Notes: generated from the letters alone by a model not told the origin. Counted from the first letter of the stretch, positions 1,103-20,774 are shown. The stretch is 64,000 nt of DNA from Candidatus Niyogibacteria bacterium (GCA_016432485.1 CP066691.1:11348-75347), one strand, 5' to 3'. Made by a program: numbers and translations.

Positions 1103-2071
1103 TTATCCGCCAAAAGACAAAGCAATGGTTATTGCTCCGATTACCGCCAACAGAACCAGAATTTTTTCTATTCCCCGATATTGTTTATATTCGTCAAACA
1201 TAAAGAGTCCCAAAATCATCCTTCCGAGCATCTGGGAAACAAAAAAGATCGGCTTTACTACGGTAAGGGGCGCGAGCTGCAGCGCCCAGTATGAAAGAAA
1301 AATAGAGGAAAAAATAGATCCGCCTGCGACGGCAGTCATCCATAAAGTGGTTCTGATTGGAAGCGGACTTAGTTCTCTATTCATTTCATCGTTTTTCTTT
1401 TCATTGTCCTTGTTTTCGTTATCCTTTTTTGGGAAAATACTTTTTATCTTGGTTATGCAAAAGATTGCCAGCGCCATCAGGAATGCTCCGCCATACCATC
1501 CGAAAACAAATTTACCGACGGAAATATCGCTAAGAGCAAAATACCGCATAGAGAAAGTGGCAAATCCCCAGATAACCGTATAAACGGCGACATAGATGAA
1601 AAGCTTTGGGGCGACATGCTCTTCTCCGATCTTTTGCTTGCGGTAGTTGCTGAATCCAAGCCCTATAATTGTAACCACGCAAAGAAAAAGACCCGCGCCC
1701 ATCCCGAAATTTAGGTATTTGCTCTCGTTTAGGACGATGTAGCCCAAAGTTATGGCAATGACATCATCCATGAATAAAGTTATGGACACAAAACTAAGGG
1801 AATGCTGGTCTGCCTTCCATTGGCAGTAAGCGGCGTAGCCGTTCGCGGCGCCTATGGACGTTATGAACAAGAGTGTTTTATCAAAGACTAATTGTCCAAG
1901 GAATAACGCGGCGACGGAACCGAAAGCCGCGGCAAAAAAGTAATGCAGGGTAAAGCGGTTGTTAAAACTGATTTTGTCGGTATGTATAAGTTTTGCTTTT
2001 CCGAACCAGGGGTAAAATATGTTGCCGATTAGAATTCTTATAATTACCGGCACAAGCCACATTCCGGCCAT
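1103..2071 (-). CDS. DMT/EamA-family-like integral membrane transporter (about 10 TM) with a Lys/Asn/Glu-rich internal loop
   Basis: Polytopic hydrophobic protein with two repeated halves and an EamA-like C terminus (TVVKPIFFVSQMLGRMILGLFMFDE). The low-complexity loop reads KKDNENKDNEKKNDE. Confidence 0.5.
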   Translation of the reverse strand: MAGMWLVPVIIRILIGNIFYPWFGKAKLIHTDKISFNNRFTLHYFFAAAFGSVAALFLGQLVFDKTLLFITSIGAANGYAAYCQWKADQHSLSFVSITLFMDDVIAITLGYIVLNESKYLNFGMGAGLFLCVVTIIGLGFSNYRKQKIGEEHVAPKLFIYVAVYTVIWGFATFSMRYFALSDISVGKFVFGWYGGAFLMALAIFCITKIKSIFPKKDNENKDNEKKNDEMNRELSPLPIRTTLWMTAVAGGSIFSSIFLSYWALQLAPLTVVKPIFFVSQMLGRMILGLFMFDEYKQYRGIEKILVLLAVIGAITIALSFGG

Positions 2072-2198: not shown

Positions 2199-4376
2199 GT
2201 GTCTAAAAACGTGAAAATTATAGCTACTCTGGGCCCCGCAACCAGAAAAGAAGGCGATGTGCTTAAAATGCGCGGCCGTGTTGATTTTATCAGGGTAAAT
2301 ATGTCCCACTCTTCGCTTGAGGACTTGGATTATTTTGTTAAAATTTCAAAAAAAGTCGGCATCCCTTTTATTCTTGATACCGAGGGGTCGCAGATAAGGA
2401 GCGGAAGGTTTGAAAAACCGCCCGTTTATTTTAATAAAAACGATATGGTGGAGCTTTTGGGCGAGAGCGGAATTAAATCTGTAGGAGATAAAAATAAGAT
2501 TTATCTTCGTCCAAAAGAAATAATCCCGCAGCTTGAAGAAGGAGATATTCTTTATATGGATTTTGACACGTTGGCTTTGCGTGTTACCGATAACACTTTG
2601 CGTGACAAGGGGCGCGTTGGGACTAGCGTTATTACGGGAGGTTTTTTGGGCAACAATAAAGGTGTCGTGGTTGATTCGGCTTTTACTAAATCATATAGTT
2701 TGCCCACTCTTTCGCCAAAAGACACAGAAGCCATAAAAATCGGACTTGCTGAAAACCTCGGCTATATCGCCGCCTCGTTTATGCGTTCGGGGGAGGCCGT
2801 TGATGAGGTAAGAGAGGAAACGGATGGCAAGATGAAAATTATTTCAAAGATAGAATGCCAAGACGGCCTGAATAATTTAGATGACATTATTGCCAAGTCC
2901 GACTTTTTGCTTATTGACAGGGGCGACTTAAGTAAAGAAGTCCCTTTGGAAGACATCCCGTTTCTGCAAAAGGAAATAATTTCAAAAGCAAAAAGCGCAG
3001 GCAAAGGCACGTATGTCGCCACAAATCTTTTAGAAACAATGGTTGAGAAGAAAAAATCGACAAGGGCTGAAGTATGCGACGTGGTCAATATAATCCGCGA
3101 CGGAGCTTATGGGCTGACGTTGGCGTCAGAGACCGCCATAGGAAAATATTCCATGGAATGTATAAATATGCTAAATACCTTAATCTCGCGCGCCGGGTTG
3201 GGAAAAGGCAGCGACGCTTTAATTGCCCCTCACGGCGGAAAGCTTATCCATAGAATGATAAACACCCCGCCCGATAGTTCTTACTTAAACTCGCTTAAAA
3301 AATTGGAAATATCAGATGATATAGCGATGGACACGGAGCAGATAGCAACCGGCGTTTTCAGCCCACTGGAAGGTTTTATGGGGCGGGCAGATTTTCAAAG
3401 CGTTTTAGACAGCGCCCGTCTTGCAAACGGTCTGGTCTGGCCGCTTCCGATTGTTCTGGACGCCAGGCAAAATGACGCTGACGGATTTAATGCCGGAGAA
3501 GATATCGCGCTTACGCATAAGGGAGAGACACTTGCCATTTTACACTTGGATGAAAAATTTAATTTTGACAAAAAAGAAACAGCCCGAAAGATTTACGGAA
3601 CTCTAAACGAAGAACATACCGGCGTGCGGGGGGTTTTCGCGATGAATCCGGTTTTACTTGCCGGAAAAATTTCTCTTTTAAAAAGGAGAAATGCCGAACA
3701 CTTGGCTTACGCTCTGACTCCGAAGCAAGTGAGGCGGATTTTTAAAGAAAGGCACTGGTCGCGCGTGGTCGGGTTTCATACAAGAAATGTGATTCATAGA
3801 AGTCATGAGCATATACAGCTTGCCGCAATGAAGCAGGAAAACTGCGACGGGCTGTTTGTGCATCCGGTGGTCGGTAAGAAAAAGCCTGGCGATTACAACG
3901 CACGCTACATAATCAAGAGTTATGAAAGGATGCTCGGCGGCTTATATCCTGAAAATAAAGTTGTACTCGCAGCTTTCAATACCTATTCAAGATATGCCGG
4001 GCCAAGAGAGGCGTTATTTACCGCCATTTGCCGCCAGAATTTCGGCTGCAGTCATTTTGTGGTCGGACGAGACCATACCGGAGTCGGAAATTTTTATCCT
4101 CCGACGGCCTCGCACGACATATTTGACAAGTTTCCCGACCTGGGCATTAAAGCCGTGAAATTTGACGAAGTGTTTTATTCCAAAAAACTGGGTGCTTATG
4201 TGCGCGGCGAGGACAGCCCGAATCATGCTCCCGAGGACAAACTTTCCATCAGCGGCACCCAGGCGCGAAAAATGTTTGAGCGCGGTGTGGCGCCTCCGGA
4301 GTGGTTTATGCGCCCGGAAGTGTCCGGAATAATTATTGACGCCTTAAAACGCGGCGAAAAAGTGTTTGTGGAATAA
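2199..4376 (+). CDS. sat: Fusion protein: N-terminal pyruvate-kinase-like barrel domain (about aa 1-335) + C-terminal sulfate adenylyltransferase (ATP sulfurylase, Sat)
   Basis: The N-terminal part shows PK signatures in order: KIIATLGPAT, RVNMSHSS, LDTEGSQIR, ISKIECQDGLNN, LIDRGDLSKEVP, ATNLLETM, STRAEVCDV. The C-terminal part shows ATP sulfurylase signatures: APHGGKLI, GFHTRNVIHRSHEHIQ, VHPVVGKKKPGDY, VVGRDHTGVG. GTG start. Confidence 0.8.
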   Translation: MSKNVKIIATLGPATRKEGDVLKMRGRVDFIRVNMSHSSLEDLDYFVKISKKVGIPFILDTEGSQIRSGRFEKPPVYFNKNDMVELLGESGIKSVGDKNKIYLRPKEIIPQLEEGDILYMDFDTLALRVTDNTLRDKGRVGTSVITGGFLGNNKGVVVDSAFTKSYSLPTLSPKDTEAIKIGLAENLGYIAASFMRSGEAVDEVREETDGKMKIISKIECQDGLNNLDDIIAKSDFLLIDRGDLSKEVPLEDIPFLQKEIISKAKSAGKGTYVATNLLETMVEKKKSTRAEVCDVVNIIRDGAYGLTLASETAIGKYSMECINMLNTLISRAGLGKGSDALIAPHGGKLIHRMINTPPDSSYLNSLKKLEISDDIAMDTEQIATGVFSPLEGFMGRADFQSVLDSARLANGLVWPLPIVLDARQNDADGFNAGEDIALTHKGETLAILHLDEKFNFDKKETARKIYGTLNEEHTGVRGVFAMNPVLLAGKISLLKRRNAEHLAYALTPKQVRRIFKERHWSRVVGFHTRNVIHRSHEHIQLAAMKQENCDGLFVHPVVGKKKPGDYNARYIIKSYERMLGGLYPENKVVLAAFNTYSRYAGPREALFTAICRQNFGCSHFVVGRDHTGVGNFYPPTASHDIFDKFPDLGIKAVKFDEVFYSKKLGAYVRGEDSPNHAPEDKLSISGTQARKMFERGVAPPEWFMRPEVSGIIIDALKRGEKVFVE

Positions 4377-4392
4377 ATAAGGATGAACAAAT

Positions 4393-5364
4393 CTAACCGC
4401 GTCTAAATAATTCGCGCATTAAAGCCCCGCCCATACTCTTCATTCTTTTTATTTCCCTGATAATCTCCGTTCTCGCTTTTCTTTTTAAATGCCCTTCCGG
4501 GAGAAGGGTAATATGTTTATAACTTTTGTAGACCTCGTCCAGTTTTAAAGGAGAAAAACGTTTTAGCGCCTGTAGCCGTTCTATATCTGCAAAAATGGTT
4601 TCTTTTGGAATTTTTGCTGTCGGGTTATTATAGTACGCGTCAAAAATCGGAAGTAATTCGTCCCAAAATGGATGCGGAGCGAGAGTTACTTCCGTATCCT
4701 CGTTTCCGCGCGGACCGTAATGGGCGCTAACAAAGTGTCCGTCGCGCCATTTTTGCGCTCTCTTTGGATGTGAATCAGGAAAAGTTACTTTCCACCACTC
4801 GTTTAAATGCGGTCTCATAGCCAGATTGAGAAATGAAGACAGAGCTTCAATTGTGTCGTTATTTCTGCTAATGATGTCTTCCATTCGCGCGCGCAGCACT
4901 TTGTCCAGCAGGAAGCTTTTAATGAAGAAAGTCGTATAATCAATGGCGGCGCAAACCACGTTATTATCGGTAAAATATTGTGTTATAGTGCTGTTTTTGG
5001 CCAACCAGGTTCTTATGTCGCGGATTGTAAAAATTACAGGGTGGGGATTAAGAATGTCCATGGGGCAAGCGTTCATTTCGAATTCCGGCGCGTCAGAGCC
5101 CACGACCTTAAAAGGATATCCTTTTTCGGCTAAAAATTTTTGCAAGCGTATAAAAAAATCCTCCGGTATTGCTCCGTAGGAAAAAAGATTTCTGGCATCA
5201 GGGTAAGAAGAAATAAATCGCCCTCCGTATTTATCAAGCGAGTGTCTGCCGATTCTTGTTTCATACAGAATAAAAACATCCGGGTGGGCATTAAGCATTT
5301 GCACGATGACCGAGGTGCCGGTTTTGGCCGCGCCCACGACAAAAATAATGTTTTTATTCTCCAT
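4393..5364 (-). CDS. Sulfotransferase family protein (PAPS-dependent type)
   Basis: An N-terminal 5'-PSB-like P-loop (IFVVGAAKTGTSVI) and an RD-x-R..S region (TIRDIRTWLAKNS) are present. The gene is convergent with the sat fusion gene. Confidence 0.6.
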   Translation of the reverse strand: MENKNIIFVVGAAKTGTSVIVQMLNAHPDVFILYETRIGRHSLDKYGGRFISSYPDARNLFSYGAIPEDFFIRLQKFLAEKGYPFKVVGSDAPEFEMNACPMDILNPHPVIFTIRDIRTWLAKNSTITQYFTDNNVVCAAIDYTTFFIKSFLLDKVLRARMEDIISRNNDTIEALSSFLNLAMRPHLNEWWKVTFPDSHPKRAQKWRDGHFVSAHYGPRGNEDTEVTLAPHPFWDELLPIFDAYYNNPTAKIPKETIFADIERLQALKRFSPLKLDEVYKSYKHITLLPEGHLKRKARTEIIREIKRMKSMGGALMRELFRRG

Positions 5365-5456: not shown

Positions 5457-7238
5457 ATGACTATGGGAGTGAACAAAATTGTTCGGATAATTACGCTCGC
5501 GAAATCAGCTTTCGGGCAATATAAATGGCAAATTGCTCTTTTAGCGGGGCTTAGTTTTTTGAGCGGCGTTCTGGATGTGGTGGGAATCAACGCTATTATT
5601 CCCATTTTTTCCGTGATTCAGGGCGGGGGCGCGACCGACATTATTTCAAAAACGACAAAAAGTTTTTTCTTATTTTTCGGCGTTCCTTTCACGGTCAGAT
5701 ATCTTATGATTTTTATGGCCTTGATGTTTTCGGCAAAGGCCGCGTTTCTTTTCGCGTCCAAATATATAAATTTGAAGATAGCCGCGGACTACGAAAAAAA
5801 CACCAGAAATGAATTGTTTAGGGCAATGGTTGAAAGCAACTGGCCCCATCTCGCGAGGCAAAAGGCCGGACACCTTAGTCAGGTTTTGATTATGAATGTA
5901 GAGAGAGGCTCGTCTCTTCTTATTCATCTCGGGGGATCCGCTCTCATTGTCACGAATTTTTTGGTCTACGGTTTTCTGGCGCTAAATGTGTCTTTTCTTA
6001 TAGCAATGCTCGCTTTTGCTTTCGGAGGAATAATCCTTCTGGTTTTTAAACCGCTTTATTACAGAACTAAGATGGCCTCTGAAGAGATGGTCCGAAAATA
6101 CAAAGATTTGGCCCATTACACCGATGAAACCGTTTTGGGAATGAAAGCCGTAAAGTCGGCTCGGGTCGAAGAACCGGTTTTAAAATTGTCCTCTAAATAT
6201 TTTAGCGCGATGAGAAAGCTTTATTTGCGCATCGGATTTCTTAGAAGCATTACGGATGTTCTTCTCCAGCCAATTGCCGCTTTTTTCATTTTGGGAATTC
6301 TTGCCGTTTTTTACAAAACAGGAACATTGCATTTTGTTTCTTTTGCCGTAATTATTTACGCGATTAACCGGGTTTTTTCCAATGTTCAGGCGGCTCAAAC
6401 CGAAATACATGTTTTGAATTCAGACGCGCCGCATGTTTTGAGCATTTTGGCGTTTAAGGAAGAGGCGAAACTTAATAAGGAAAAAGAAACGGGAACAAAA
6501 TCGTTTCAATTCGGCAAATCAATTGAATTTCGAAATGTCGGTTTTTCTTACGATGGCGATAGCCGGACTCTGTCGGACATAAATTTTTCCGTCGCCAAAG
6601 GCGAAATGCTGGGAATTATCGGTCCGTCGGGCGCTGGAAAATCAACTCTCGTGGATTTGTTTTTGCGGCTTCAAATTCCTCAAAAAGGCGCCATTTTGGC
6701 CGACGGAGAAAACATAAAAGACATTAAGCTCGGGGATTGGAGGGCAAACATCGCTTATGTTTCCCAGGAGGCGTTTTTAATGAATGACACTATTTATGAA
6801 AATATCAGATTTTACAATGAAGGACTGAACAAGGAAGACATAATTGACGCGGCAAAACTCGCGAACATTTACGATTTTATTCAGGCATTGCCTGACGGAT
6901 TTGAAACGGTGGTCGGTGAACGCGGTATGCGGCTTTCCGGCGGAGAACGTCAGCGCGTAGTTCTTGCCCGGGCGCTTGTCAGGAAGCCGCAAATTTTGAT
7001 TTTGGATGAAGCAACGAGTTCGCTTGACAACGAATCAGAGCTCTTAATTCAAAGAGCGGTTGAAAAGCTGAGGGGCAAAATGACCATTATCGTCATAGCG
7101 CATCGTTTGAGTACCGTTGAAAATTCCGATAAACTGGTTGTGCTTGAAAATGGCAGGGTCTCCGAGGCCGGAGCTCCAACCGAACTTTTAAGAGATAAAC
7201 ATTCCTATTTTTTTAAAGTTTATAATTTAAGAAAATAA
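5457..7238 (+). CDS. ABC exporter, fused permease/ATPase (MsbA/lipid-flippase-like)
   Basis: Six-TM N-terminal half, Walker A GPSGAGKST, ABC signature LSGGERQR, Walker B ILILDEATSSLD, H-loop AHRL. Confidence 0.85.
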   Translation: MTMGVNKIVRIITLAKSAFGQYKWQIALLAGLSFLSGVLDVVGINAIIPIFSVIQGGGATDIISKTTKSFFLFFGVPFTVRYLMIFMALMFSAKAAFLFASKYINLKIAADYEKNTRNELFRAMVESNWPHLARQKAGHLSQVLIMNVERGSSLLIHLGGSALIVTNFLVYGFLALNVSFLIAMLAFAFGGIILLVFKPLYYRTKMASEEMVRKYKDLAHYTDETVLGMKAVKSARVEEPVLKLSSKYFSAMRKLYLRIGFLRSITDVLLQPIAAFFILGILAVFYKTGTLHFVSFAVIIYAINRVFSNVQAAQTEIHVLNSDAPHVLSILAFKEEAKLNKEKETGTKSFQFGKSIEFRNVGFSYDGDSRTLSDINFSVAKGEMLGIIGPSGAGKSTLVDLFLRLQIPQKGAILADGENIKDIKLGDWRANIAYVSQEAFLMNDTIYENIRFYNEGLNKEDIIDAAKLANIYDFIQALPDGFETVVGERGMRLSGGERQRVVLARALVRKPQILILDEATSSLDNESELLIQRAVEKLRGKMTIIVIAHRLSTVENSDKLVVLENGRVSEAGAPTELLRDKHSYFFKVYNLRK

Positions 7239-8848: not shown

Positions 8849-9835
8849 ATGTCGTTTGAATGCTTAAAAGATAAAGCTATTTTAATAACCGGAGGCACCG
8901 GTTCTTTCGGCCGGAGTTTTGTCCGTCATTTGCTGGGCTCTAAAGCAAAAAAGATTGTTGTTTTTTCAAGGGACGAGCTGAAGCAATCCGAGATGCAGAG
9001 CGAAATGAAAGACGAGCGTCTGCGGTTTTTTATAGGCGATATTCGCGATTTGTCCCGCCTTCAAAGGGCTTTTCGGGATGTTGATGTCGTGGTGCATGCC
9101 GCGGCTCTTAAACAGGTGCCGGCAATGGAATACAATCCGTTTGAGGCGGTGCAAACCAATATAATCGGAAGCCAAAATGTTATTGAAGCCGCGATTGACC
9201 AAGGTGTCCGAAAAGTTTTACTTATATCAACCGACAAAGCCGCGGAGCCGATAAATCTTTACGGCGCCACTAAGCTCTGCGCGGAAAAATTGTTTATAAG
9301 CGGAAATTCTTACGCTCCGGGGAAAACCATTCTTAGCGCGGTGAGATACGGGAATGTTATCGGCAGTCGCGGGAGCGTTATTGACGTTCTTAAAAGAAGT
9401 CGGGATGTCAAGCGCGTTTACATCACGGATCCGGCTATGACTCGTTTTTGGATTACCTTAAATCAAAGTTTTAAACTTGTGGATTTCGCGCTTGAAAATA
9501 TGACCGGAGGAGAAATTTTTATACCGAAACTTTCAAGCATGAAACTTTCGGACTTGTTTGATGTTTTGGCGCCGGGAGCCGAGCGGGAAATAATCGGTCC
9601 TCGCGCCGGAGAAAAAATTCATGAAGTACTGCTTACCAGCGAAGAGTCCTATAGGGCGTTGGAAATGGAAGATATGTATGTGGTGCTCCCTCTGTTTCCT
9701 TATGAGGCGGATATTCATTCCAAATATCATGAATCTGGACGGAAACCCGAGTCGGGATTTCGCTTCGCCAGCCACACGAATAAAAATTGGCTTACTAAAG
9801 AGGATTTTAAAAAAATACTTAACGACGAATTATGA
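8849..9835 (+). CDS. pseB: UDP-N-acetylglucosamine 4,6-dehydratase (inverting), PseB/FlaA1-like
   Basis: ILITGGTGSFGRSFV start, then IGDIRD, VVHAAALKQVP, ISTDKAAEPINLYGATK, TDPAMTRFWITL. The protein is a short (328 aa) CapD-type enzyme. Confidence 0.85.
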   Translation: MSFECLKDKAILITGGTGSFGRSFVRHLLGSKAKKIVVFSRDELKQSEMQSEMKDERLRFFIGDIRDLSRLQRAFRDVDVVVHAAALKQVPAMEYNPFEAVQTNIIGSQNVIEAAIDQGVRKVLLISTDKAAEPINLYGATKLCAEKLFISGNSYAPGKTILSAVRYGNVIGSRGSVIDVLKRSRDVKRVYITDPAMTRFWITLNQSFKLVDFALENMTGGEIFIPKLSSMKLSDLFDVLAPGAEREIIGPRAGEKIHEVLLTSEESYRALEMEDMYVVLPLFPYEADIHSKYHESGRKPESGFRFASHTNKNWLTKEDFKKILNDEL

Positions 9836-9974
9836 CCCAGTACAATTAAATCGAATGCTAAATTTAGTTTCTTGGGTGGTATAAATATGTATTATTATAA
9901 AATTATATTTAAGCAAATTAGTCGGGAGTTTGCTTGCGAATTTAGCAAGAAACTTTCGATTTAATTGTACTGGG
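9836..9974. mobile_element. MITE-like ORF-less element with 20-bp perfect terminal inverted repeats (cccagtacaattaaatcgaa ... ttcgatttaattgtactggg)
   Basis: The sequence at 9836-9855 is the exact reverse complement of 9955-9974. Its termini match those of the GIY-YIG unit at 7244-7530. It fills the entire pseB-pseC spacer, and its right end supplies GGG just before the pseC ATG. Confidence 0.6.
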
Positions 9975-11111
9975 ATGATTCCTTATAGCCGTCAGTCTGT
10001 TGACGCGAACGATATCAAAGCGGTTGTCGGGGTCTTGTCGTCTGATTTTATTACGCAAGGGCCGACGGTGTCTAAATTTGAAAAATCGCTCGCGCTTTAT
10101 TGCGGTGTTGAGTACGCAGTCGCAGTTTCAAACGGAACGGCTGCTTTGCATCTGGCGTATCTCGCCGCCGGATTAAAGAAGGGGGACGAGGCAATTACGA
10201 CCCCGAACACTTTTGCCGCGACCTCAAATATGCTTCTTGTCGTCGGCGCGAGGCCCGTTTTTGCCGATATCCGTCTTGATACGCGTAATCTTGACGAGAC
10301 AAAAATTGAAAAGCTGATTACCCCGAAAACAAAAGTGATTGTGCCCGTGCATTTCGCGGGATTGCCTTGCGATATGAAAACAATTTCATCAATCGCCAAA
10401 AAACGCCGTTTATTGGTTATTGAAGACGCTTGCCATGCTTTAGGCGCCAGGTATCGCGATTCCAAAATAGGCGATTGTAAGTACTCGGACATGGCCGTAT
10501 TCAGCTTTCATCCGGTAAAAACGATAACAACCGGCGAAGGCGGAGCGGTATTAACCAATAAAAAATCATATTACGATAAACTCTTGCGTTTGAGAAGTCA
10601 CGGCATTCACAAAGACAAAATCGGAAAAAATGTCATGACGGCTCTCGGATACAACTACAGGATGACCGATATTCAGGCCGCTTTGGGCTTGTCCCAACTT
10701 TCTAAAGTTGATTCTTTTGTCAGGCGGCGCAATCAAGTCGCGAGATATTATGAGGAGGAATTAAAAAATTCCAAAGATGTTTTGTTGCCCGTAAGCTTTC
10801 CCGGATATTATTCAGCGGGGCATATTTATGTAATAAGGGTTTCCAACCGGAAGAATCGCGATGAGCTCGCGTCTTTTTTAAAAAAGAACGGCATCGGCGC
10901 GAACTTCCATTATCCGGCCGTTTATTCCCACCCGTATTACAGGCGCAACGGTTATAAAAATATCCGCCTTGCTCAAACGGAAAAATACCATAATTCTTGC
11001 ATCACTCTTCCGTGTTACCCCGGTCTTTCCAAATCAATTGTTCGTGAAATCGCGGGGCTTATTAATAAATTTTTCATAAAAAATGAAAATACACGCGTTG
11101 ACTCCGTCTGA
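9975..11111 (+). CDS. pseC: DegT/DnrJ/EryC1/StrS-family PLP aminotransferase, PseC-like (UDP-4-amino-4,6-dideoxy-N-acetyl-beta-L-altrosamine transaminase)
   Basis: MIPYSRQSVD...DFITQGP start; SNGTAALHLA; PLP-lysine region SFHPVKTITTGEGG; C-terminal YPGL. The ATG at 9975 is preferred over the upstream TTG. Confidence 0.85.
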   Translation: MIPYSRQSVDANDIKAVVGVLSSDFITQGPTVSKFEKSLALYCGVEYAVAVSNGTAALHLAYLAAGLKKGDEAITTPNTFAATSNMLLVVGARPVFADIRLDTRNLDETKIEKLITPKTKVIVPVHFAGLPCDMKTISSIAKKRRLLVIEDACHALGARYRDSKIGDCKYSDMAVFSFHPVKTITTGEGGAVLTNKKSYYDKLLRLRSHGIHKDKIGKNVMTALGYNYRMTDIQAALGLSQLSKVDSFVRRRNQVARYYEEELKNSKDVLLPVSFPGYYSAGHIYVIRVSNRKNRDELASFLKKNGIGANFHYPAVYSHPYYRRNGYKNIRLAQTEKYHNSCITLPCYPGLSKSIVREIAGLINKFFIKNENTRVDSV

Positions 11112-12183
11112 TTGCGGCCGGTGGGATGATTTTTGTCTGGAGTCAGACGATGCGTGGTTTTGGCACACTTTCGGATGGCTCAAATACACTCTTGATTATA
11201 AACCGGAATATAAACCGCGTTCGCTTTCTTTTTTTATGGAAGAGGGAGGTCGGATTATTGCGATCTCGCCTTTGATTCTCGAAGAACGCGGGAGCGTAAA
11301 AGAATTTTCTTACGGCGGAGGCTGGGGTCCAATACCGGCGTTAGCCAATGATTTAACCAAAAACGAACGGGAAAAAATTACCAAAGCTGTTTTTGAAGAA
11401 ATCGACAGGAAAGCTAAAGAAGAAGGGGTCAAATTGGCAAAATTTCGTTTCTCAACGCTTAATAAATCATTTATTGAAACGGGGGAGCAGAAATTCAATC
11501 ACTTAATGAAGTTCGGATATTTCGGCGAAATGCTCAACACCCAAGTTATTGATCTCTCGCGCTCTTTGGATGTTCTGCGCGGCGCTTTGCGTCACGGCCA
11601 TGATTCCGATATTTCCCGCGCCGAAAAATCACTAAAGGCCGAAGTGTATGATTCCGAAACCATAACGGGGCCGGTATTTGAAGAATATGTAAAATTGCAT
11701 CACAAGGCCTCGGGGCGTTCTACTCGTCCGCGTTCAACTTTTGATATGATGCATAAATGGATCGAGAACAAAAACGCATTTCTGGTCGGGGTAAAAAAAG
11801 ACGGCAAATTCGCCGGTTTCTCTTATTTTTTCAGTTTTAAAAACAATGTTTATTACGGTTCGTCCTGCAATGACCCGGATGTCGAAAAAATGCCCATAGG
11901 GCATCTAATTCAGTGGACGGCTATTCGCTGGATGCGCGAAAAAAATTTTGGATTTTACGAAATAGGCTGGCAGCAGTACGGAAACACTCTTTTTGATTTT
12001 CCTTCCGAAAAAGAAATAGATATCGCGCGGTTCAAGCGCGGTTTTGGCGGAGAAACTTACCCGCTTTTTATAGGCGAAAAGTATTATGATAAGGATTATT
12101 TCCTGACGATTTATAAGCAAAGGATTGGCGATTACTCCGGATTTTTAGCGAAAACACACCATGAAGAACAACCGATTCAATGA
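11083..12183 (+). CDS. FemAB/Acetyltransf_6 (GNAT-fold) family protein; candidate aminoacyl/acyl transferase acting on an amino sugar
   Basis: About 360 aa with FemAB-like architecture and a C-terminal GNAT-like region (FLVGVKKDGKFAGFSYFF...YYGSS). It lies inside the pse cluster. Confidence 0.5.
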   Translation: MKIHALTPSDCGRWDDFCLESDDAWFWHTFGWLKYTLDYKPEYKPRSLSFFMEEGGRIIAISPLILEERGSVKEFSYGGGWGPIPALANDLTKNEREKITKAVFEEIDRKAKEEGVKLAKFRFSTLNKSFIETGEQKFNHLMKFGYFGEMLNTQVIDLSRSLDVLRGALRHGHDSDISRAEKSLKAEVYDSETITGPVFEEYVKLHHKASGRSTRPRSTFDMMHKWIENKNAFLVGVKKDGKFAGFSYFFSFKNNVYYGSSCNDPDVEKMPIGHLIQWTAIRWMREKNFGFYEIGWQQYGNTLFDFPSEKEIDIARFKRGFGGETYPLFIGEKYYDKDYFLTIYKQRIGDYSGFLAKTHHEEQPIQ

Positions 12184-13174
12184 ACAAAATATAAAACCGG
12201 AAAGCAAAGATTTTCAGGAAGCCCTCGCGTCTGATATCGCGGTTTTGGCCGCCTCCAAAAGTAAATTTATAAAAGTATCGTGTCCCGCTTGCGGAAAAGA
12301 CGATGCCGGATCCGCCTTTGAAAAATACGGTTTCAATTTTGATGTTTGTCGTAAATGCGGCACGGCATATATGAATCCCAGGGCTACGCCCAAAATTTTG
12401 CGGGATTTTTATGAACACTCGCTGGTTTATGAGTGTTGGAATAAATTTATTTTTCCCGCGTCCGAAAAAATGCGCAGAGAAAACATTGTTAAACCGCGGG
12501 TGCGGCGAATTTTGGAAATATGCGACAAATTTGACGTTCCGACTGATTGTTTGGTTGAAGTTGGGGCTGGTTTCGGCACGTTTTGTAAAGAAGCAAAAGC
12601 CACAGGCAGATTTTCTAAAATTATCGCGATTGAGCCAATGCCTGCGCTTGCGCAATCATGCCGCAAGCGGGGCATAGAGACCATCAACGATTTTATTGAA
12701 AACATTAAGTTTCTCAATACGCCTCCGGACATAATCGTTTCTTTTGAGGTGATTGAGCATCTTTTTTCGGCCGAGGAATTTTTAAAAACTTGCAGAGGCC
12801 TTATGAATCCGGGGTCTATTATTGCGGTAACCTGCCCTAATTTTAAGGGGTTTGACATTTCTACGCTCGGGATTATGTCGGAAAGCATTGACCATGAGCA
12901 TATCAATCTTTTTAACCCGGATTCGCTTAAAATTCTTTTTAAGCGCGCCGGTTTTGAGGCGCTGGAATGCTTCACGCCTGGAGAATTGGATGCCGAAATT
13001 GTCAGAAATAAGGTTCTTGCCGGAAAGTTCAGTGTGTCTGACCGACTTTTTTTGAAGACGATACTGATTGATAGATGGAATGAATTGGGCGCCGGATTCC
13101 AGAAATTTCTGAAAGAGAATAACCTCTCGTCCCATACATGGTTCGTAGCGAGAAAGCCTTATGATCGGAAATAA
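12161..13174 (+). CDS. Class I SAM-dependent methyltransferase with N-terminal Cys4 zinc ribbon
   Basis: CPACG...CRKCG ribbon; SAM motif I LVEVGAGFGTF; motif post-I IIAIEP; IIVSFEVIEHL. Confidence 0.75.
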   Translation: MKNNRFNEQNIKPESKDFQEALASDIAVLAASKSKFIKVSCPACGKDDAGSAFEKYGFNFDVCRKCGTAYMNPRATPKILRDFYEHSLVYECWNKFIFPASEKMRRENIVKPRVRRILEICDKFDVPTDCLVEVGAGFGTFCKEAKATGRFSKIIAIEPMPALAQSCRKRGIETINDFIENIKFLNTPPDIIVSFEVIEHLFSAEEFLKTCRGLMNPGSIIAVTCPNFKGFDISTLGIMSESIDHEHINLFNPDSLKILFKRAGFEALECFTPGELDAEIVRNKVLAGKFSVSDRLFLKTILIDRWNELGAGFQKFLKENNLSSHTWFVARKPYDRK

Positions 13175-13787
13175 AAAAGTCTGCATACTTGACTACGGTT
13201 CCGGAAATGTCGGCTCTGTCTTTAATATGTTTCAGACCTTGATTGACACGGCTGTTATCTCAAATAAATCGGAGGATATTGTCGGCGCCACTCATATCGT
13301 GCTTCCGGGAGTTGGCGCGTTCGGCGCTTCAATGGACAAAATTAAAAAAACAATTACGCTGGATGTCTTGAAGCGCGAGATTTTTGAAAACAAAAAACCA
13401 TTTTTAGGCATTTGTGTGGGCATGCAAGTTTTGGCCGATAAGGGTTTTGAATTCGGAGAATATGACGGTCTCGGTTGGATTCCGGGGGAGGTGAGAAAAA
13501 TAAATTCGGGCAAACTCCCTCTGCCGCATATCGGCTGGAACAGCGTTGTTGCGCTGAAAAAAAATCCGCTTTTGGACGGGTTAAGTGAAAGTCAAGATTT
13601 TTATTTTGTTCACAGCTTCGTTTTTGATGAAAAAGACGCGGAAAGTGTTGCCGCTAAAACAGAATACGGAGAGAAGTTTAATTCCATAATAGCCAAAGGC
13701 AATATTTTTGGAGTCCAATTTCATCCTGAAAAGAGCCAGAAAGCCGGCTCAATTTTATTAAAAAATTTTCTCTCTATAACACAATGA
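13161..13787 (+). CDS. hisH: Imidazole glycerol phosphate synthase HisH-like glutamine amidotransferase (WbuY-type, LPS/glycan-associated)
   Basis: Class-I GATase: ILDYGSGNVGSV; catalytic Cys in GICVGMQVL; GVQFHPEKS. It is paired with a HisF homolog and a PP-loop amidotransferase. Confidence 0.8.
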   Translation: MIGNKKVCILDYGSGNVGSVFNMFQTLIDTAVISNKSEDIVGATHIVLPGVGAFGASMDKIKKTITLDVLKREIFENKKPFLGICVGMQVLADKGFEFGEYDGLGWIPGEVRKINSGKLPLPHIGWNSVVALKKNPLLDGLSESQDFYFVHSFVFDEKDAESVAAKTEYGEKFNSIIAKGNIFGVQFHPEKSQKAGSILLKNFLSITQ

Positions 13788-14590
13788 AGAAGCGGCGTCT
13801 GATTCCGGTTTTACTCCTTAAAAACGGATGGCTTGTTCAGAGCAAGGGCTTCCAATTTTATCAAAATCTCGGAAATCCCGTAACTTCCGCAAAGCGTCTT
13901 TCGGAATGGGCGTCCGATGAGCTTATTTATCTTGATATTTCGCGTGATGAAGTGTATGATTTAAGGCGGGACGATTTGGGGCATGAAAACCGCCGCTCTT
14001 TTCTGGAAATAATTCAGGATGTTTCAAAGGTGACCTTTATGCCAATGACCGTGGGGGGGCGGATAAGGACGCTTGCCGACATTGAGCGCCGCCTTTCTTT
14101 GGGGGCTGATAAGATATCCATAAATACGGCCGCACTTCTGAATCAAAATTTTATAACCGAGGCGGCGCGTGAATTTGGCTCTCAATCTGTGGTTGTGTCG
14201 GTTGACTTTAAAAAAATAGGCGATAAGTTTGTTGTTATGTCCGAAGGAGGAACAAAGGAAACGGATTATTCTCCGCTAGAGTGGGCGAAGATCGCACAAA
14301 GCGCGGGCGCGGGGGAAATACTTTTAAATTCAATTGACCGAGACGGCGCGCGCACGGGATATGAAATTGATGTCATCGCCGAAGTTTCAGAAAATGTGAA
14401 AATACCCGTTATTGCCTGCGGCGGCGCGGGCGAATGGGCGCATTTTGCCGAAATTCTTGAAAAAACCAAGGCAGACGCGGTGGCAGCCGCAAATATTTTC
14501 CAATATACCGACCAGAGCGTTTATCAAGCGAAAAAATATCTATATGAACGCGGTTATAATGTCAGACCCCCTGATTTATTAACCGTATAA
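13784..14590 (+). CDS. hisF: HisF-like cyclase subunit homolog (WbuZ-type)
   Basis: (beta/alpha)8 HisF signatures: LIPVLLLKNG, DELIYLDIS, TVGGGIRT, SVDFKK, IPVIACGGAG. Confidence 0.8.
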   Translation: MKKRRLIPVLLLKNGWLVQSKGFQFYQNLGNPVTSAKRLSEWASDELIYLDISRDEVYDLRRDDLGHENRRSFLEIIQDVSKVTFMPMTVGGRIRTLADIERRLSLGADKISINTAALLNQNFITEAAREFGSQSVVVSVDFKKIGDKFVVMSEGGTKETDYSPLEWAKIAQSAGAGEILLNSIDRDGARTGYEIDVIAEVSENVKIPVIACGGAGEWAHFAEILEKTKADAVAAANIFQYTDQSVYQAKKYLYERGYNVRPPDLLTV

Positions 14591-14602
14591 ATTTTAATCA
14601 AG

Positions 14603-15823
14603 ATGAATTATTGTAAACGTTGCGTATATCCGCAAATTGCGGTCAATTTGGAAATAAATAACGACGGCATCTGTTCAAGCTGCGGAGTTTTTGAAAAATT
14701 CAAAAAATTAACGCCGGAGTTTTGGGCGCAAAGAAAAAAGAAATTTGAGGAGTTAATCAAAGAAATTTCAAAAAACAATACGTCCGATTACGACTGTGTT
14801 ATTCCGGTCTCCGGCGGCAAGGACAGTTATTATCAGACGCATATGATGGTTTCCGTTTACGGCTTAAAACCGCTTTTAGTGACATATCACGGCAATAACT
14901 ATTTGCCGGAAGGCGATTATAACCGCGATAGAATGCGCCATGTCTTTAATGCCGACCATCTTGTTTTCGGGCCGTCAGTCGAGGTTTTAAAAAAGCTGAA
15001 TCGTCTTTGTTTTCGTAAAATGGGCGATATGAATTGGCACGCGCACTGCGGCATAATGACTTATCCGATTCAGGTAGCGGTGAAATTTAACATTCCTTTA
15101 GTCATCTGGGGGGAAACGAGCTGGGACATATCGGGGATGTATGAGCCGGAGGATTTTGTGGAATTCAGCGCGCGCGCGAGACACGAACATAGTTTGCGCG
15201 GTTTTGAGTGGCACGATATGCTTAACGACGAAAAGGAGAAATTAAGCGAAAAGGATTTGCTCTGGACGAAATATCCTACGGACGACGAGATTTTAAAAGT
15301 CGGCGTCAGGGGTTTGTACATCGGTAATTTTTTTAGATGGGACCCGAATAAGCATTCTAAAATGGTGCAGGAAAAATATGGTTGGAAGCCGAGAGAAGTT
15401 CCGTTTGAAAGGACTTATCGCAAGTTTTCAAATTTGGATGACAGGTATGAAAATGGAGCGCATGATTTGTTAAAGTTCATAAAGTTCGGCTACGGCCGGG
15501 CTTCGGACCACGCGTCCAAAGACATACGCGACGGCTATATGACGCGCGAAGAAGGGATTGAAAAAGTAAGAAAGCATGACCATGTTGTTTCAAGCGATTT
15601 GAACTACTGGCTTGATTATGTCGGGATGTCCGAGGAAGAATTTTGGCGAGTAGCGGACACCTTTCGCGACCCGCGTGTCTGGAGAATTGAAAATGGAGCA
15701 TGGGTTAAGGATAATGTTTGGGGAACTTCCTCTGCTTACGGCCCCGTTTATCTTTCCGAGGAACAAAGCAAGGAATTTAATAAAAGGCAGAAAAATTTGG
15801 GCCTAAAAAATAATGGCAAATAA
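14603..15823 (+). CDS. N-acetyl sugar amidotransferase (PP-loop ATP pyrophosphatase, WbuX/TIGR03573-like)
   Basis: N-terminal CxxC...CxxC, PP-loop SGGKDS, and co-occurrence with HisH/HisF homologs. This is the characteristic trio for N-acetimidoyl (acetamidino) sugar formation. Confidence 0.7.
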   Translation: MNYCKRCVYPQIAVNLEINNDGICSSCGVFEKFKKLTPEFWAQRKKKFEELIKEISKNNTSDYDCVIPVSGGKDSYYQTHMMVSVYGLKPLLVTYHGNNYLPEGDYNRDRMRHVFNADHLVFGPSVEVLKKLNRLCFRKMGDMNWHAHCGIMTYPIQVAVKFNIPLVIWGETSWDISGMYEPEDFVEFSARARHEHSLRGFEWHDMLNDEKEKLSEKDLLWTKYPTDDEILKVGVRGLYIGNFFRWDPNKHSKMVQEKYGWKPREVPFERTYRKFSNLDDRYENGAHDLLKFIKFGYGRASDHASKDIRDGYMTREEGIEKVRKHDHVVSSDLNYWLDYVGMSEEEFWRVADTFRDPRVWRIENGAWVKDNVWGTSSAYGPVYLSEEQSKEFNKRQKNLGLKNNGK

Positions 15824-20084: not shown

Positions 20085-20130
20085 CAGGTATGTTATTTTT
20101 CTGAAAGACGTTCGCGACGGGGGAAAACCA

Positions 20131-20583: not shown

Positions 20584-20612
20584 GCCCCGCCTCGGCGCGG
20601 GCCTTTCTTTTC
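20584..20612 (+). terminator. Terminator-like imperfect GC hairpin (gccccgcctcggcgcgggc) followed by T-rich tract
   Basis: Lies immediately after the pseH stop. It is followed by cctttcttttcc. Confidence 0.4.
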
Positions 20613-20615
20613 CTA

Positions 20616-20656: not shown

Positions 20657-20774
20657 TGTGCGGGAAAACAATTGCCCCGAGTTTTTGCTGCGGAGTGTCC
20701 GGAATGCGCGCTTCTTAACCATCATTTGACACAATGTATTTTTAAGCGTAGTTTGATGGTTATTCAACGTAAAT

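What the first reader, a model, noticed from the sequence alone, without database searches (positions are those of the whole stretch)
2199..5364. Pyruvate-kinase barrel fused to ATP sulfurylase, next to a sulfotransferase, with no APS kinase in sight
One 725-aa ORF carries, in order, an almost complete pyruvate-kinase catalytic barrel and a full sulfate adenylyltransferase. The PK residues for PEP, Mg/K and ADP binding look conserved (NMSHS, ISKIE, RGDL, TRAE blocks), but the PK C-terminal regulatory domain is absent. The convergent neighbour is a PAPS-type sulfotransferase, and the locus is a nonulosonate/surface-glycan cluster. No CysC/APS-kinase P-loop protein is encoded anywhere in the 64 kb. 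One hypothesis is that the PK-like module regenerates ATP from PEP locally to pull the unfavourable sulfurylase reaction. A second is that it phosphorylates APS to PAPS, replacing APS kinase. Either would be an unusual sulfate-activation route feeding glycan sulfation in a reduced genome.
Basis: partly seen in the sequence, partly recalled or inferred. Interest (0 to 1): 0.75.

Follow-up and report, generated by a model that had tools for sequence, protein, structure and literature searches.

The report
Sulfate-activating enzyme with built-in pyruvate kinase
A real and widespread but apparently undescribed enzyme joins a pyruvate-kinase catalytic barrel to ATP sulfurylase; it most likely recycles ADP to ATP from PEP during PAPS synthesis for glycan sulfation, and it does not replace APS kinase.

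Summary
ORF 2199-4376 (725 aa) is a pyruvate-kinase A+B barrel without the C-domain, followed by PUA_2 and a full ATP sulfurylase. A divergent PAPS-type sulfotransferase converges on it. No APS kinase lies anywhere in the 64 kb.

It is not an artefact. Five independent assemblies reproduce the locus, and at least 267 species-level genomes encode relatives (CPR, DPANN, Chloroflexota, Acidobacteriota and others).

The idea that the PK module replaces APS kinase is not supported. In 53 of 80 related loci an APS kinase is fused to the same chain (24) or is a separate gene nearby, mostly directly downstream (29). One protein is PK-ATPS-APSK-CysQ. PK catalytic residues are invariant whether or not APS kinase is linked.

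The best reading is a PAPS-synthesis module with built-in PEP-driven recycling of ADP to ATP. This removes the ADP that traps APS kinase in a dead-end complex, much as engineered PAPS cascades do.

The window comes from an 837-kb Candidatus Niyogibacteria contig and is a derived, cysC-detached variant. No cysC ortholog from that contig was found among the best database hits, so how this organism makes PAPS remains open.

I rate it a new variant of a known kind, of moderate to high interest.

The parts
2199..4376 (+). PK-barrel / PUA_2 / ATP-sulfurylase fusion protein (725 aa; = QQG46232.1, annotated only as 'sulfate adenylyltransferase')
2205..3161 (+). Pyruvate-kinase A+B barrel (aa 3-321), no C-terminal regulatory domain. 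Catalytic and ligand residues R32, N34, S36, H37, D60, T61, R67, K154, K217, E219, D243, T275 and E311 are all present.
   Evidence: Pfam; alignment to solved PKs; column conservation in 81 family members; AF2 pLDDT about 85-95 over this half
3162..3221 (+). Short linker (aa 322-341). Most family members have a linker about 25 aa longer.
   Evidence: alignment A1 is 813 columns and typical members are 751 aa; low pLDDT at 336-349
3222..3683 (+). PUA_2 N-terminal domain of ATP sulfurylase (aa 342-495)
3708..4340 (+). ATP-sulfurylase catalytic domain (aa 504-714). HxxH (H533, H536) and GRDH (R624-H626) are intact. FQTRN reads FHTRN and GRDHAG reads GRDHTG, both family-invariant changes.
4393..5364 (-). 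Divergent PAPS-type sulfotransferase (323 aa; QQG46233.1). The 5'-PSB loop is GAAKTGTS (aa 11-18). An invariant RDIRTWxxK block starts at R115, where the 3'-PB motif normally sits.
1103..2071 (-). Conserved polytopic membrane protein (322 aa, about 9 hydrophobic segments, no family hit). In relatives it travels with the window-type sulfotransferase/ABC region rather than with the fusion. Its role is unknown.
5457..7238 (+). ABC exporter (593 aa) adjacent to the sulfotransferase. It is conserved next to the sulfotransferase ortholog in relatives and is probably a glycan or capsule exporter.
8849..21890 (+). Nonulosonate (pseudaminic/legionaminic-type) biosynthesis genes: 4,6-dehydratase, DegT aminotransferase, methyltransferase, HisH/HisF-like pair, CMP-transferase, HAD, NeuB-family synthase. 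This glycan is the likely sulfation target.

Best explanation
The gene encodes a member of a large, uncharacterised family of sulfate-activating enzymes. In this family an ATP sulfurylase carries, at its N-terminus, a catalytically competent pyruvate-kinase barrel that lacks the allosteric C-domain.

Proposed mechanism. The ATPS half makes APS from ATP and sulfate. An APS kinase converts APS plus ATP into PAPS plus ADP; across the family this kinase is fused, adjacent or encoded elsewhere. The PK half uses PEP to turn that ADP straight back into ATP. This keeps the local ATP/ADP ratio high. It removes the ADP that traps APS kinase in the dead-end E-ADP-APS complex and that also occupies the sulfurylase site. 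The second ATP of PAPS synthesis is thereby paid for with PEP. PAPS then feeds sulfotransferases that decorate a nonulosonate-containing surface glycan.

Shown here: the architecture, the conserved catalytic residues, and the genomic coupling to APS kinase, CysQ, sulfotransferases and nonulosonate genes.

Inferred: PK activity and its kinetic coupling to the other steps.

The window's copy (Candidatus Niyogibacteria) is a derived variant. The fusion gene sits beside a second-type sulfotransferase without its cysC partner.
For: The PK half aligns end to end with solved PKs.

Every K+, Mg2+, PEP and nucleotide ligand is essentially invariant (at most one deviating sequence per column) in 81 family members. 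This holds whether APS kinase is fused (24), separate (29) or not nearby (28).

APS kinase is fused or nearby in 53/80 related loci, mostly directly downstream on the same strand. The window's nearest relatives are all linked: L010 fused at 71% identity, L009 adjacent at 69%, L082 600 bp downstream at 72%, and L090 in a fusion-APSK-sulfotransferase operon. Triple fusions have intact APSK motifs.

One ORF is PK-PUA-ATPS-APSK-CysQ. APSK-CysQ and APSK-sulfotransferase fusions lie downstream in other loci. The recurring fusion partners thus include enzymes that clear inhibitory by-products.

Sulfotransferases occur in at least 43/81 loci, and NeuB, NeuC and CMP-transferase clusters recur.

From the literature: APS kinase is inhibited through a dead-end E-ADP-APS complex, and ADP binds ATP sulfurylase much as APS does (PMC3734648). 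In an engineered cascade the PAPS peak was practically missing without PK/PEP recycling of ADP (PMC9885120). A precedent exists for fusing a 'helper' enzyme to ATPS, namely pyrophosphatase in stramenopiles and haptophytes (PMC2275785).

The window protein shows no decay: 3 non-catalytic deviations at 149 near-invariant columns, against a family range of 0-14.
Against: No biochemical data exist for any member. The PK equivalog model scores below its cut-off.

Several active-site-adjacent positions carry family-specific residues: DTKGPEIR becomes DTEGSQIR, KIEN becomes KIEC, VARGDLG becomes IDRGDLS, TQML becomes TNLL. These could signal a different substrate or cation dependence.

About a quarter of loci with adequate flanks (21 of 74), plus the window, have no APS kinase within 10 kb. 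Without an APS kinase no ADP is produced by the pathway itself, so the rationale there rests only on general ATP/ADP buffering.

No cysC from the window's 836,981-bp contig was seen among the top APSK hits. The AF2 model of the full protein is poor in the ATPS half, so nothing can be said about active-site proximity or channelling.
Confidence: 0.6

Rival explanations
1. The PK-like module is a PEP-dependent APS 3'-kinase that replaces CysC. The fusion alone would then convert sulfate to PAPS.
For: No APS kinase lies in the 64 kb window. No cysC ortholog from the 836,981-bp source contig appears among the best 120 APSK hits or in the 12 multi-member clusters I opened. The adjacent sulfotransferase looks PAPS-type. 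The PK subfamily has its own invariant substitutions near the active site.
Against: The same PK module, with identical active-site columns, sits in one polypeptide with a canonical, motif-intact APS kinase in 24/80 loci. It sits in an operon with one in most of the other linked loci, including the window's closest relatives. A redundant second APS kinase in the same chain is implausible. The residues that position ADP's phosphates in PK (R32, R67, K154) are kept. PK chemistry transfers phosphate to a phosphate or carboxylate oxygen held at the metal site, not to a ribose 3'-OH; that last point is from established PK enzymology, not a test made here.
Confidence: 0.06
2. The PK barrel is a regulatory or scaffolding domain. 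It would act as a PEP or energy-charge sensor, or as an oligomerisation module, without meaningful turnover. The fungal ATP sulfurylase's APS-kinase-like allosteric domain would be the analogy.
For: There is a precedent of a degenerate kinase domain used allosterically in ATPS (PMC4220642). The PK C-domain, which normally mediates tetramerisation and allostery, is missing. The PK equivalog score is below its cut-off.
Against: Every catalytic and metal or K+ ligand (K217, E219, D243, T275, N34, S36, D60, T61) is essentially invariant (at most one deviating sequence per column) across deep divergence, about 38-100% identity. Purely regulatory descendants usually lose such residues, as the fungal APSK-like domain lost its P-loop function. 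Stand-alone 330-370-aa barrels of the same subfamily exist.
Confidence: 0.15
3. There is no functional coupling. The PK half would simply be the organism's glycolytic pyruvate kinase that happened to fuse to sat.
For: JGI pipelines annotate these proteins as 'pyruvate kinase'. CPR and DPANN genomes are streamlined and fusions are common in them.
Against: The fusion also occurs in large genomes, such as the 10.4-Mb Ardenticatenaceae and 5.8-Mb Acidobacteriota contigs. These would be expected to have ordinary PKs, although I did not check. The gene is embedded in glycan/sulfation clusters, not glycolytic ones. The PK module forms its own C-domain-less subfamily, with canonical 470-480-aa PKs appearing only at about 35% identity. 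The fusion has been maintained through at least 11 gains or losses of APSK fusion.
Confidence: 0.05
4. In this particular genome the module is an incomplete remnant. It would make only APS, and the sulfotransferase would depend on PAPS (or an APS kinase) supplied by a host, or be inactive.
For: The cysC-less state is derived within a clade whose other members are all APSK-linked. No cysC ortholog from the source contig was detected. Members of this group are thought to be symbiotic with restricted metabolism (general statements in abstracts listed). Three family-invariant prolines are substituted in the window protein.
Against: Both genes are intact, identical across five samples and within the normal family range of conservation. 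A divergent cysC (below about 54% identity to the query), or one on another contig of the MAG, was not excluded.
Confidence: 0.14

Closest known systems
Bifunctional SAT/APS-kinase PAPS synthases (Aquifex aeolicus 2GKS; NCBIfam PRK05537; human PAPSS1/2)
   Same: A homologous ATP-sulfurylase core (2GKS E 8e-64). 24/80 relatives carry the same C-terminal functional APS-kinase arrangement as Aquifex. The output is PAPS for sulfation.
   Different: This family has an extra N-terminal pyruvate-kinase barrel that is not reported for any PAPS synthase in the reviews read. The window protein itself lacks the APSK domain (PRK05537 score 273, far below its cut-off of 669).
Monofunctional archaeal/bacterial ATP sulfurylase (Methanothermococcus thermolithotrophicus 8A8D; Thermus thermophilus 1V47)
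   Same: These are the best sequence matches to the C-terminal 385 aa (E 2e-95 and 2e-85). The match covers the full length, and the HxxH and GRDH motifs are conserved.
   Different: The family-invariant changes FQTRN to FHTRN and GRDHAG to GRDHTG, and the N-terminal PK fusion.
Canonical pyruvate kinase (E. coli PykF 1PKY, rabbit muscle PK 1A49, Geobacillus 2E28)
   Same: The A+B barrel aligns over its whole length (E about 1e-42 to 1e-47). All catalytic, Mg2+, K+ and nucleotide-phosphate ligands are conserved.
   Different: There is no C-terminal allosteric/tetramerisation domain. The protein scores below the equivalog cut-off. Subfamily-specific residues flank the active site. The genomic context is glycan sulfation, not glycolysis.
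Engineered PAPS-synthesis cascades with PK/PEP ATP regeneration
   Same: The same set of activities is combined (ATPS + APSK + PK with PEP). The stated purpose is to recycle ADP and relieve the dead-end E-ADP-APS inhibition of APS kinase (PMC9885120).
   Different: Those cascades mix separate, unrelated enzymes in vitro. Here the combination is a natural single polypeptide or operon. The coupling in the natural system is inferred, not measured.
APS kinase-ATPS-pyrophosphatase fusions of diatoms, haptophytes and oomycetes
   Same: An ATP sulfurylase is fused to a helper enzyme that removes a by-product and so favours the pathway (PMC2275785; PMC4220642).
   Different: The helper there is inorganic pyrophosphatase acting on PPi. 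Here it is a PK barrel presumed to act on ADP. The lineages differ (eukaryotes versus CPR, DPANN and other prokaryotes).

Membership tests
Sulfate adenylyltransferase, Sat type (TIGR00339 / NF003166; PF14306+PF01747) | Scores above the curated family cut-offs over the full length | tested here: met
   NF003166 427.9 > 387; TIGR00339 357.1 > 322.95; PF14306 and PF01747 are matched over nearly their full length
Sulfate adenylyltransferase, Sat type (TIGR00339 / NF003166; PF14306+PF01747) | Active-site motifs QTRN-x2-H-x2-H and GRDHAG | tested here: inconclusive
   T528, R529, N530, H533, H536, R624, D625 and H626 are essentially invariant. However, Q is replaced by H527 and A by T627 in all 81 family members. 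The effect on catalysis is unknown.
Sulfate adenylyltransferase, Sat type (TIGR00339 / NF003166; PF14306+PF01747) | ATP + sulfate -> APS + PPi activity | not testable with these tools
   Needs an enzyme assay
Pyruvate kinase (TIGR01064; PF00224 + PF02887) | A-domain TIM barrel with inserted B domain | tested here: met
   PF00224 aa 3-321 covers model positions 2-327/328. AF2 gives a beta-rich insert at about 76-159 with high pLDDT.
Pyruvate kinase (TIGR01064; PF00224 + PF02887) | Catalytic Lys, Mg2+ ligands Glu/Asp, proton-donor Thr, K+ ligands Asn/Ser/Asp/Thr, and nucleotide-phosphate Arg/Lys | tested here: met
   K217, E219, D243, T275, N34, S36, D60, T61, R32, R67 and K154 are present and essentially invariant in the family. 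The mapping to rabbit-muscle PK numbering comes from established knowledge.
Pyruvate kinase (TIGR01064; PF00224 + PF02887) | C-terminal alpha/beta regulatory domain (PF02887) | tested here: not met
   No PK_C hit. The PK match ends at aa about 332 of models of about 470-590 aa, and PUA_2 follows.
Pyruvate kinase (TIGR01064; PF00224 + PF02887) | Score above the equivalog cut-off | tested here: not met
   TIGR01064 262.9 < 306.4; all NCBIfam PK models score below their cut-offs
Bifunctional PAPS synthase (SAT/APS kinase, PRK05537) | APS-kinase domain (PF01583) in the same chain | tested here: not met
   The domain is absent from the window protein and from the whole window. It is present in 24/80 relatives.
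PAPS-dependent sulfotransferase fold (neighbour 4393-5364) | 5'-phosphosulfate-binding loop (GxxK[TS]G[TS]S type) at the N-terminus | tested here: met
   GAAKTGTS at aa 11-18. The Pfam Sulfotransfer_3 hit covers aa 7-38 (32.1 > 27), PDB 3RNL aligns there, and the loop is conserved in the family.
PAPS-dependent sulfotransferase fold (neighbour 4393-5364) | 3'-phosphate-binding motif (strand, then R...S entering a helix) | tested here: inconclusive
   An invariant R115-D-I-R118-T-W-x-x-K123 block follows strand 110-114. The canonical Ser is not conserved. No residue-level structural superposition was available.
PAPS-dependent sulfotransferase fold (neighbour 4393-5364) | Overall sulfotransferase fold | tested here: met
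   The AF2 model has pLDDT 85.9. All 19 Foldseek PDB matches with E<=1e-3 are sulfotransferases, most of them solved with PAP bound (TPST1/2, CurM/OLS ST, S4, SULT2A1). The TM-score is only about 0.4.

The most novel reading that the evidence does not exclude
In this Candidatus Niyogibacteria genome (836,981-bp contig), glycan sulfation may run with no canonical APS kinase at all. Either the divergent sulfotransferase accepts APS directly, or a non-orthologous activity supplies the 3'-phosphate. That activity could be the PK-like barrel or another kinase. About 20 other family loci with a sulfotransferase or adequate flanks but no nearby cysC could work the same way.
Probability: 0.18. Interest if true: 0.85.

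Novelty: new variant of a known kind. Interest (0 to 1): 0.6.

Why it matters
If the PK barrel is active as proposed, nature has repeatedly built the same device that biocatalysis engineers add by hand: PEP-driven ADP recycling wired into PAPS synthesis. In the family this appears as two-, three- and even four-enzyme polypeptides (PK-ATPS-APSK-CysQ).

This would add a fourth class of ATP-sulfurylase fusion partner, after APS kinase, pyrophosphatase and APS reductase. It would give ready-made single-chain PAPS generators for enzymatic sulfation. It would also point to sulfated nonulosonate-type surface glycans as a common feature of CPR bacteria and DPANN archaea, whose cell-surface chemistry is central to their episymbiotic lifestyle and almost unknown.

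There is a practical consequence as well. These proteins are annotated either as 'sulfate adenylyltransferase' (NCBI) or as 'pyruvate kinase' (JGI). Metabolic reconstructions of ultra-small organisms may therefore count a glycolytic pyruvate kinase or an assimilatory sulfate pathway that is not there.

The cysC-less Niyogibacteria case gives a concrete, testable system for asking whether PAPS can be bypassed.

Tried and rejected
1. Assembly or frameshift artefact. Rejected: five independent assemblies, the NCBI protein QQG46232.1 and at least 267 genomes carry the fusion.

2. A hidden or degenerate cysC in the window. Rejected: the six-frame APSK-HMM search gave a best E of 0.27, and the Walker-A scan found nothing suitable. 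No CysQ is present and no second sulfotransferase.

3. Finding cysC elsewhere in the source genome. I searched with the closest relative's APS kinase. None of the top 120 hits, nor the members of the 12 multi-member clusters I opened, came from the 836,981-bp contig. The hit tables describe cluster representatives only, and about 14 lower-ranked multi-member clusters stayed unopened. Absence is therefore suggested, not proven.

4. AF2 model of the full fusion, to look for active-site proximity or channelling. The ATPS half was poorly modelled (pLDDT below 50, pTM 0.49), so no inference was drawn and no fold search was run on it.

5. Regulatory RNA, promoter or terminator signals around the gene. 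Nothing exceeded chance, and Rfam found only two tRNAs elsewhere.

6. The upstream membrane protein as a sulfate or PAPS transporter. It has no family hit and no detectable internal repeat, and it associates with the sulfotransferase/ABC region rather than with the fusion. I left it as unknown.

7. Literature. Six searches found no description of a natural PK-ATP-sulfurylase fusion. The library covers open-access papers only, so a prior mention elsewhere cannot be excluded.

8. Organism labels such as 'uncultured Methanosarcinales/Gammaproteobacteria/Saccharibacteria' on the binchicken MAGs looked inconsistent with the sequence relationships. I did not rely on them.


Full report

Yes. The window has a 725-aa ORF at 2199-4376(+). 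Pfam places a pyruvate-kinase barrel at aa 3-321, covering model positions 2-327 of 328 (E 1e-65). A PUA_2 domain follows at 342-495 and an ATP-sulfurylase catalytic domain at 504-714. No PK C-terminal domain is found.

NCBIfam's sulfate adenylyltransferase models are passed above their curated cut-offs. Every pyruvate-kinase model matches only its first ~335 positions and stays below cut-off.

The convergent neighbour at 4393-5364(-), 16 bp away stop to stop, gives only a short Sulfotransfer_3 hit over the 5'-PSB loop. Its AF2 model (pLDDT 86) has sulfotransferases as all 19 of its significant (E<=1e-3) solved-structure matches. Most of those were solved with PAP bound, and TPST2-PAP is the best. 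Its family keeps GAxKTxTS and an invariant RDIRTWxxK block where the 3'-phosphate motif normally sits.

The rest of the first 22 kb is a nonulosonate/surface-glycan cluster. It includes two PseB-like dehydratases, a DegT aminotransferase, a HisH/HisF-like pair, a CMP-transferase, a NeuB-family synthase annotated as pseudaminic acid synthase, an O-antigen-ligase-like protein, an ABC exporter and a capsule gene. Beyond 28 kb the genes are housekeeping.

It finds nothing in any of the six frames (best E 0.27). The only Walker-A proteins are the ABC exporter, DnaX, SMC and a chance match in a PBP.

**2. Not an artefact; source of the window**

Window proteins are identical to QQG46231-QQG46287 of a Candidatus Niyogibacteria bacterium MAG on a single 836,981-bp contig. 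The fusion is QQG46232.1, named only 'sulfate adenylyltransferase'. Five independent Logan assemblies from different sequencing runs reproduce the order ABC exporter - sulfotransferase - fusion - membrane protein.

**3. The fusion is a large, old, overlooked family**

All of the best 120 database clusters (56-100% identity) have PK+PUA_2+ATP-sulfurylase. Sources call them 'sulfate adenylyltransferase' or 'pyruvate kinase'.

In one-genome-per-species GTDB contigs, 267 stretches encode a relative. The 80 loci I fetched carry labels for the following groups:
- many Patescibacteria/CPR lineages
- DPANN archaea (Woese-, Nano- and Pacearchaeota)
- Chloroflexota and Acidobacteriota
- NC10, Omnitrophota and Planctomycetota
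- Gemmatimonadota, Myxococcota and others

A full-library search with the PK half alone shows that it belongs to a distinct C-domain-less subfamily. Its nearest ~140 cluster representatives are either fusion-sized (650-930 aa) or stand-alone barrels (330-370 aa). Sampled fusion-sized members are PK-PUA-ATPS with or without APSK, even at ~40% identity. Ordinary 470-480-aa pyruvate kinases appear only at ~35% identity.

**4. What travels with it**

In the 80 loci, an APS kinase is fused to the C-terminus in 24. In 29 it is a separate gene nearby, mostly starting within -10 to +30 bp of the fusion's stop on the same strand. No APS kinase is seen within 10 kb in 27, and six of those contigs end less than 2 kb downstream. 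Among loci with adequate downstream sequence, 53 of 74 are linked.

The fused APS-kinase domains have intact P-loop (WFTGLSGSGKTT), LDGD and ISPY motifs and full-length PF01583 matches. Other arrangements include:
- APS kinase fused to a CysQ-type PAP phosphatase, in either order
- APS kinase fused to a Sulfotransfer_2 domain
- a second Sat-CysC bifunctional gene in Chloroflexota loci
- one ORF (L074) that is PK-PUA-ATPS-APSK-CysQ in a single chain

At least 43 of 81 loci have a sulfotransferase within 10 kb, equally in all three APS-kinase states. Sixteen have a CysQ-like gene. The commonest neighbours are epimerase/dehydratases, DegT aminotransferases, glycosyltransferases, CMP-transferases, NeuC-like epimerases, NeuB synthases and flippases.

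The family is therefore a PAPS-supply module embedded in glycan clusters, very often nonulosonate ones.

**5. Is the PK half alive, and does it change when APS kinase is missing?**

It aligns end to end with solved pyruvate kinases. The table gives the residue mapping, using the well-known rabbit-muscle numbering from established knowledge.

| Role | Rabbit-muscle PK | This protein |
|---|---|---|
| Phosphate binding | R72 | R32 |
| K+ site | N74 / S76 / D112 / T113 | N34 / S36 / D60 / T61 |
| Nucleotide contact | H77 | H37 |
| Nucleotide phosphate | R119, K206 | R67, K154 |
| Catalytic Lys | K269 | K217 |
| Mg2+ ligands | E271, D295 | E219, D243 |
| Proton donor | T327 | T275 |
| Active-site Glu | E363 | E311 |

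All of these are essentially invariant across 81 family members (at most one deviating sequence per column). The counts are the same in the fused, separate and unlinked classes. The subfamily has its own invariant substitutions next to these residues (E62, Q65, C220, D240, N276), but they too are the same in all classes.

On a neighbour-joining tree the three classes are thoroughly interspersed. There are at least 11 fused/unfused changes and at least 19 linked/unlinked changes. The window sits in the clade (L001 separate, (L009 separate, (L010 fused, window))).

Further close relatives that are not in GTDB agree:
- P0002 (72% identity) has cysC 600 bp downstream.
- The relative carrying the ortholog of the window's sulfotransferase has a fusion-APSK-sulfotransferase operon. 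The window-type sulfotransferase lies 17 kb away beside the same ABC/capsule genes.
- P0003's relative (71% identity) has cysC 17 kb away, at the head of the NeuB operon.

Compared with L088, the window has the fusion gene where the relative has two small genes, between the membrane protein and the sulfotransferase. The window locus is therefore a derived rearrangement in which the fusion lost its cysC neighbour.

The protein shows no sign of decay. It has three deviations, all Pro to Ser/Thr and none catalytic, at 149 near-invariant columns. The family range is 0-14.

**6. How it most likely works**

The co-occurrence of the PK barrel with a canonical APS kinase in the same chain or operon rules against the idea that the barrel is an APS kinase in disguise. 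It fits the idea that the barrel complements APS kinase.

APS kinase releases ADP. APS then rebinds the enzyme-ADP form to give a dead-end E-ADP-APS complex, which is the hallmark substrate inhibition of all APS kinases. ADP also binds the ATP-sulfurylase site almost exactly as APS does (PMC3734648). In an engineered chondroitin-sulfation cascade, the PAPS peak was practically missing unless pyruvate kinase and PEP were added to reconvert ADP to ATP (PMC9885120).

The natural fusion supplies exactly that activity in cis. The net reaction would be:

sulfate + ATP + PEP -> PAPS + PPi + pyruvate

ADP never accumulates near the APS-kinase and sulfurylase sites. The PK-ATPS-APSK-CysQ protein extends the same logic to the other inhibitory by-product, PAP. 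There is a precedent for fusing a by-product-removing helper to ATP sulfurylase: pyrophosphatase in diatoms, haptophytes and oomycetes (PMC2275785; PMC4220642).

The architecture, the conservation and the genomic coupling are shown here. PK turnover and the kinetic benefit are inferred. It can raise local ATP/ADP and make the APS-kinase step, which does the pulling, run unhindered.

**7. The open point in this genome**

I searched the 5.8-billion-protein collection with the closest relative's APS kinase. Orthologs from the contigs of many fusion-bearing relatives came back at 62-78% identity. None of the top 120, and no member of the 12 multi-member clusters I could open, comes from the 836,981-bp contig. 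By contrast, 9 of 9 sampled window proteins from that contig are in the collection.

This suggests that the ancestral cysC is gone from this genome. It does not exclude the following:
- a cysC below ~54% identity
- one hidden in an unopened cluster
- one on another contig of the MAG

I could not verify that the contig is a closed chromosome. If cysC is truly absent, there are several possibilities. The sulfotransferase may depend on host PAPS, or the module may be a remnant. Alternatively the sulfotransferase may accept APS, or a non-orthologous kinase may act. The sulfotransferase's binding motifs are the same as in its 70%-identical ortholog, whose contig does encode APS kinase. That argues for the same donor in both.

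**8. Comparison with known systems, and novelty**

The ATPS half is a bona fide Sat. Its best solved match is the M. thermolithotrophicus enzyme (8A8D, 2e-95), and it carries two family-specific active-site substitutions.

The PK half works like, but is not a member of, canonical pyruvate kinase: the C-domain and the equivalog score are tested here and not met.

The window protein is not a bifunctional PAPS synthase, because it has no APSK domain. A third of its relatives are, with a PK barrel added.

Reviews of ATP-sulfurylase fusions list APS kinase, pyrophosphatase and APS reductase as partners, not pyruvate kinase. Six full-text searches found no description of this fusion. That library is open-access only.

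I rate it a new variant of a known kind: a PAPS-synthesis module with an integral PEP-dependent nucleotide-recycling domain. It is widespread in CPR, DPANN and several other phyla. Environmental work reports that sulfated and nonulosonate-bearing glycoconjugates are common while their genetics are poorly known (PMC10483923). This family is a good candidate for part of that missing genetics.

**9. Verdict**

- Interest is 0.6. It is still substantial, because an uncharacterised, multi-phylum enzyme architecture with a clear, testable mechanism and biotechnological relevance emerges, together with a concrete cysC-less test case.

Noticed in passing
L074:3-3230 (+); also L020:15042-16364, L062:12246-13580, L021:12131-13507: One ORF, cut at its N-terminus by the contig end, is PK-PUA_2-ATPS-APS kinase-CysQ (Inositol_P) in a single chain. 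Elsewhere APS kinase is fused to CysQ in either order, or to a Sulfotransfer_2 domain. The whole PAPS cycle is being assembled into multi-enzyme polypeptides.
   Followed up: partly
table (e.g. P0010, P0019, P0030); window 2199-4376: The same family is named 'pyruvate kinase' by JGI and 'sulfate adenylyltransferase' by NCBI. Automated metabolic reconstructions of CPR/DPANN genomes could wrongly score a glycolytic PK or assimilatory sulfate reduction from this gene.
   Followed up: no
P0013 (1019 aa); P0329 (1051 aa): Two further architectures turned up. One is an N-terminal sugar-nucleotidyltransferase domain (PF00483/PF12804) fused in front of PK-PUA-ATPS. The other is an unrelated protein with two PK barrels plus adenylate kinase, another apparent 'adenylate-recycling' fusion.
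   Followed up: no
window 7241-7522 (+): A 93-aa GIY-YIG domain ORF sits between the ABC exporter and the capsule-synthesis gene, with start and stop abutting both neighbours. A 44%-identical copy lies inside the glycan cluster of relative L010 (14409-14690). It may be a small mobile or homing-type nuclease riding in these clusters.
   Followed up: partly
window 1103-2071 (-): A 322-aa polytopic membrane protein (about 9 hydrophobic segments) is encoded divergently from the fusion and has no Pfam or NCBIfam hit. It is conserved at 51-55% identity in relatives, next to the window-type sulfotransferase/ABC region. Its function is unknown; a transporter or glycan-processing role is possible.
   Followed up: partly
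window 2199-4376, aa 287, 318 and about 474: The window protein replaces three prolines that are at least 97% conserved in the family (PTRAE->STRAE, GKYP->GKYS, HPGV->HTGV). All three become Ser or Thr, and two of them are also conserved in ordinary pyruvate kinases.
   Followed up: partly
window 56505-57395 (+): A NusB domain is fused to a NUDIX hydrolase domain in one 296-aa ORF.
   Followed up: no
window 58081-60294 (+); 41500-42748 (+): The SMC_N-family protein is only 737 aa, much shorter than typical bacterial SMC. ScpA and ScpB are encoded 15 kb upstream.
   Followed up: no
window 26001-28000: There is a local GC rise to 0.525 against a background of about 0.44. It overlaps a 464-aa PG_binding_1 protein (25850-27244) and an unannotated 349-aa ORF on the opposite strand (27300-28349).
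   Followed up: no
window 18765-20084 (+): A 439-aa protein has a HAD_2 phosphatase domain only in its first 178 aa. The remaining ~260 aa have no family hit. It lies between the CMP-transferase and the NeuB-family synthase.
   Followed up: no
window 26-1039 (+) and 8849-9835 (+): Two PseB-like (Polysacc_synt_2) 4,6-dehydratase paralogs lie within 9 kb. The first, which may run off the window start, is 75-79% identical to the one upstream of the fusion in relatives L081 and L082. This suggests two sugar pathways in one cluster.
   Followed up: partly
L016:14084-15778, L024, L026, L027, L032: In Chloroflexota and NC10 loci a conventional bifunctional Sat-CysC gene (560-600 aa) lies near the PK-ATPS fusion, so these genomes carry two ATP-sulfurylase domains side by side.
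   Followed up: no
window 31280-31350 (+), 53798-53870 (+): These two tRNA genes are the only Rfam matches in the window. No riboswitch or leader was detected near the sulfate-activation genes.
   Followed up: yes
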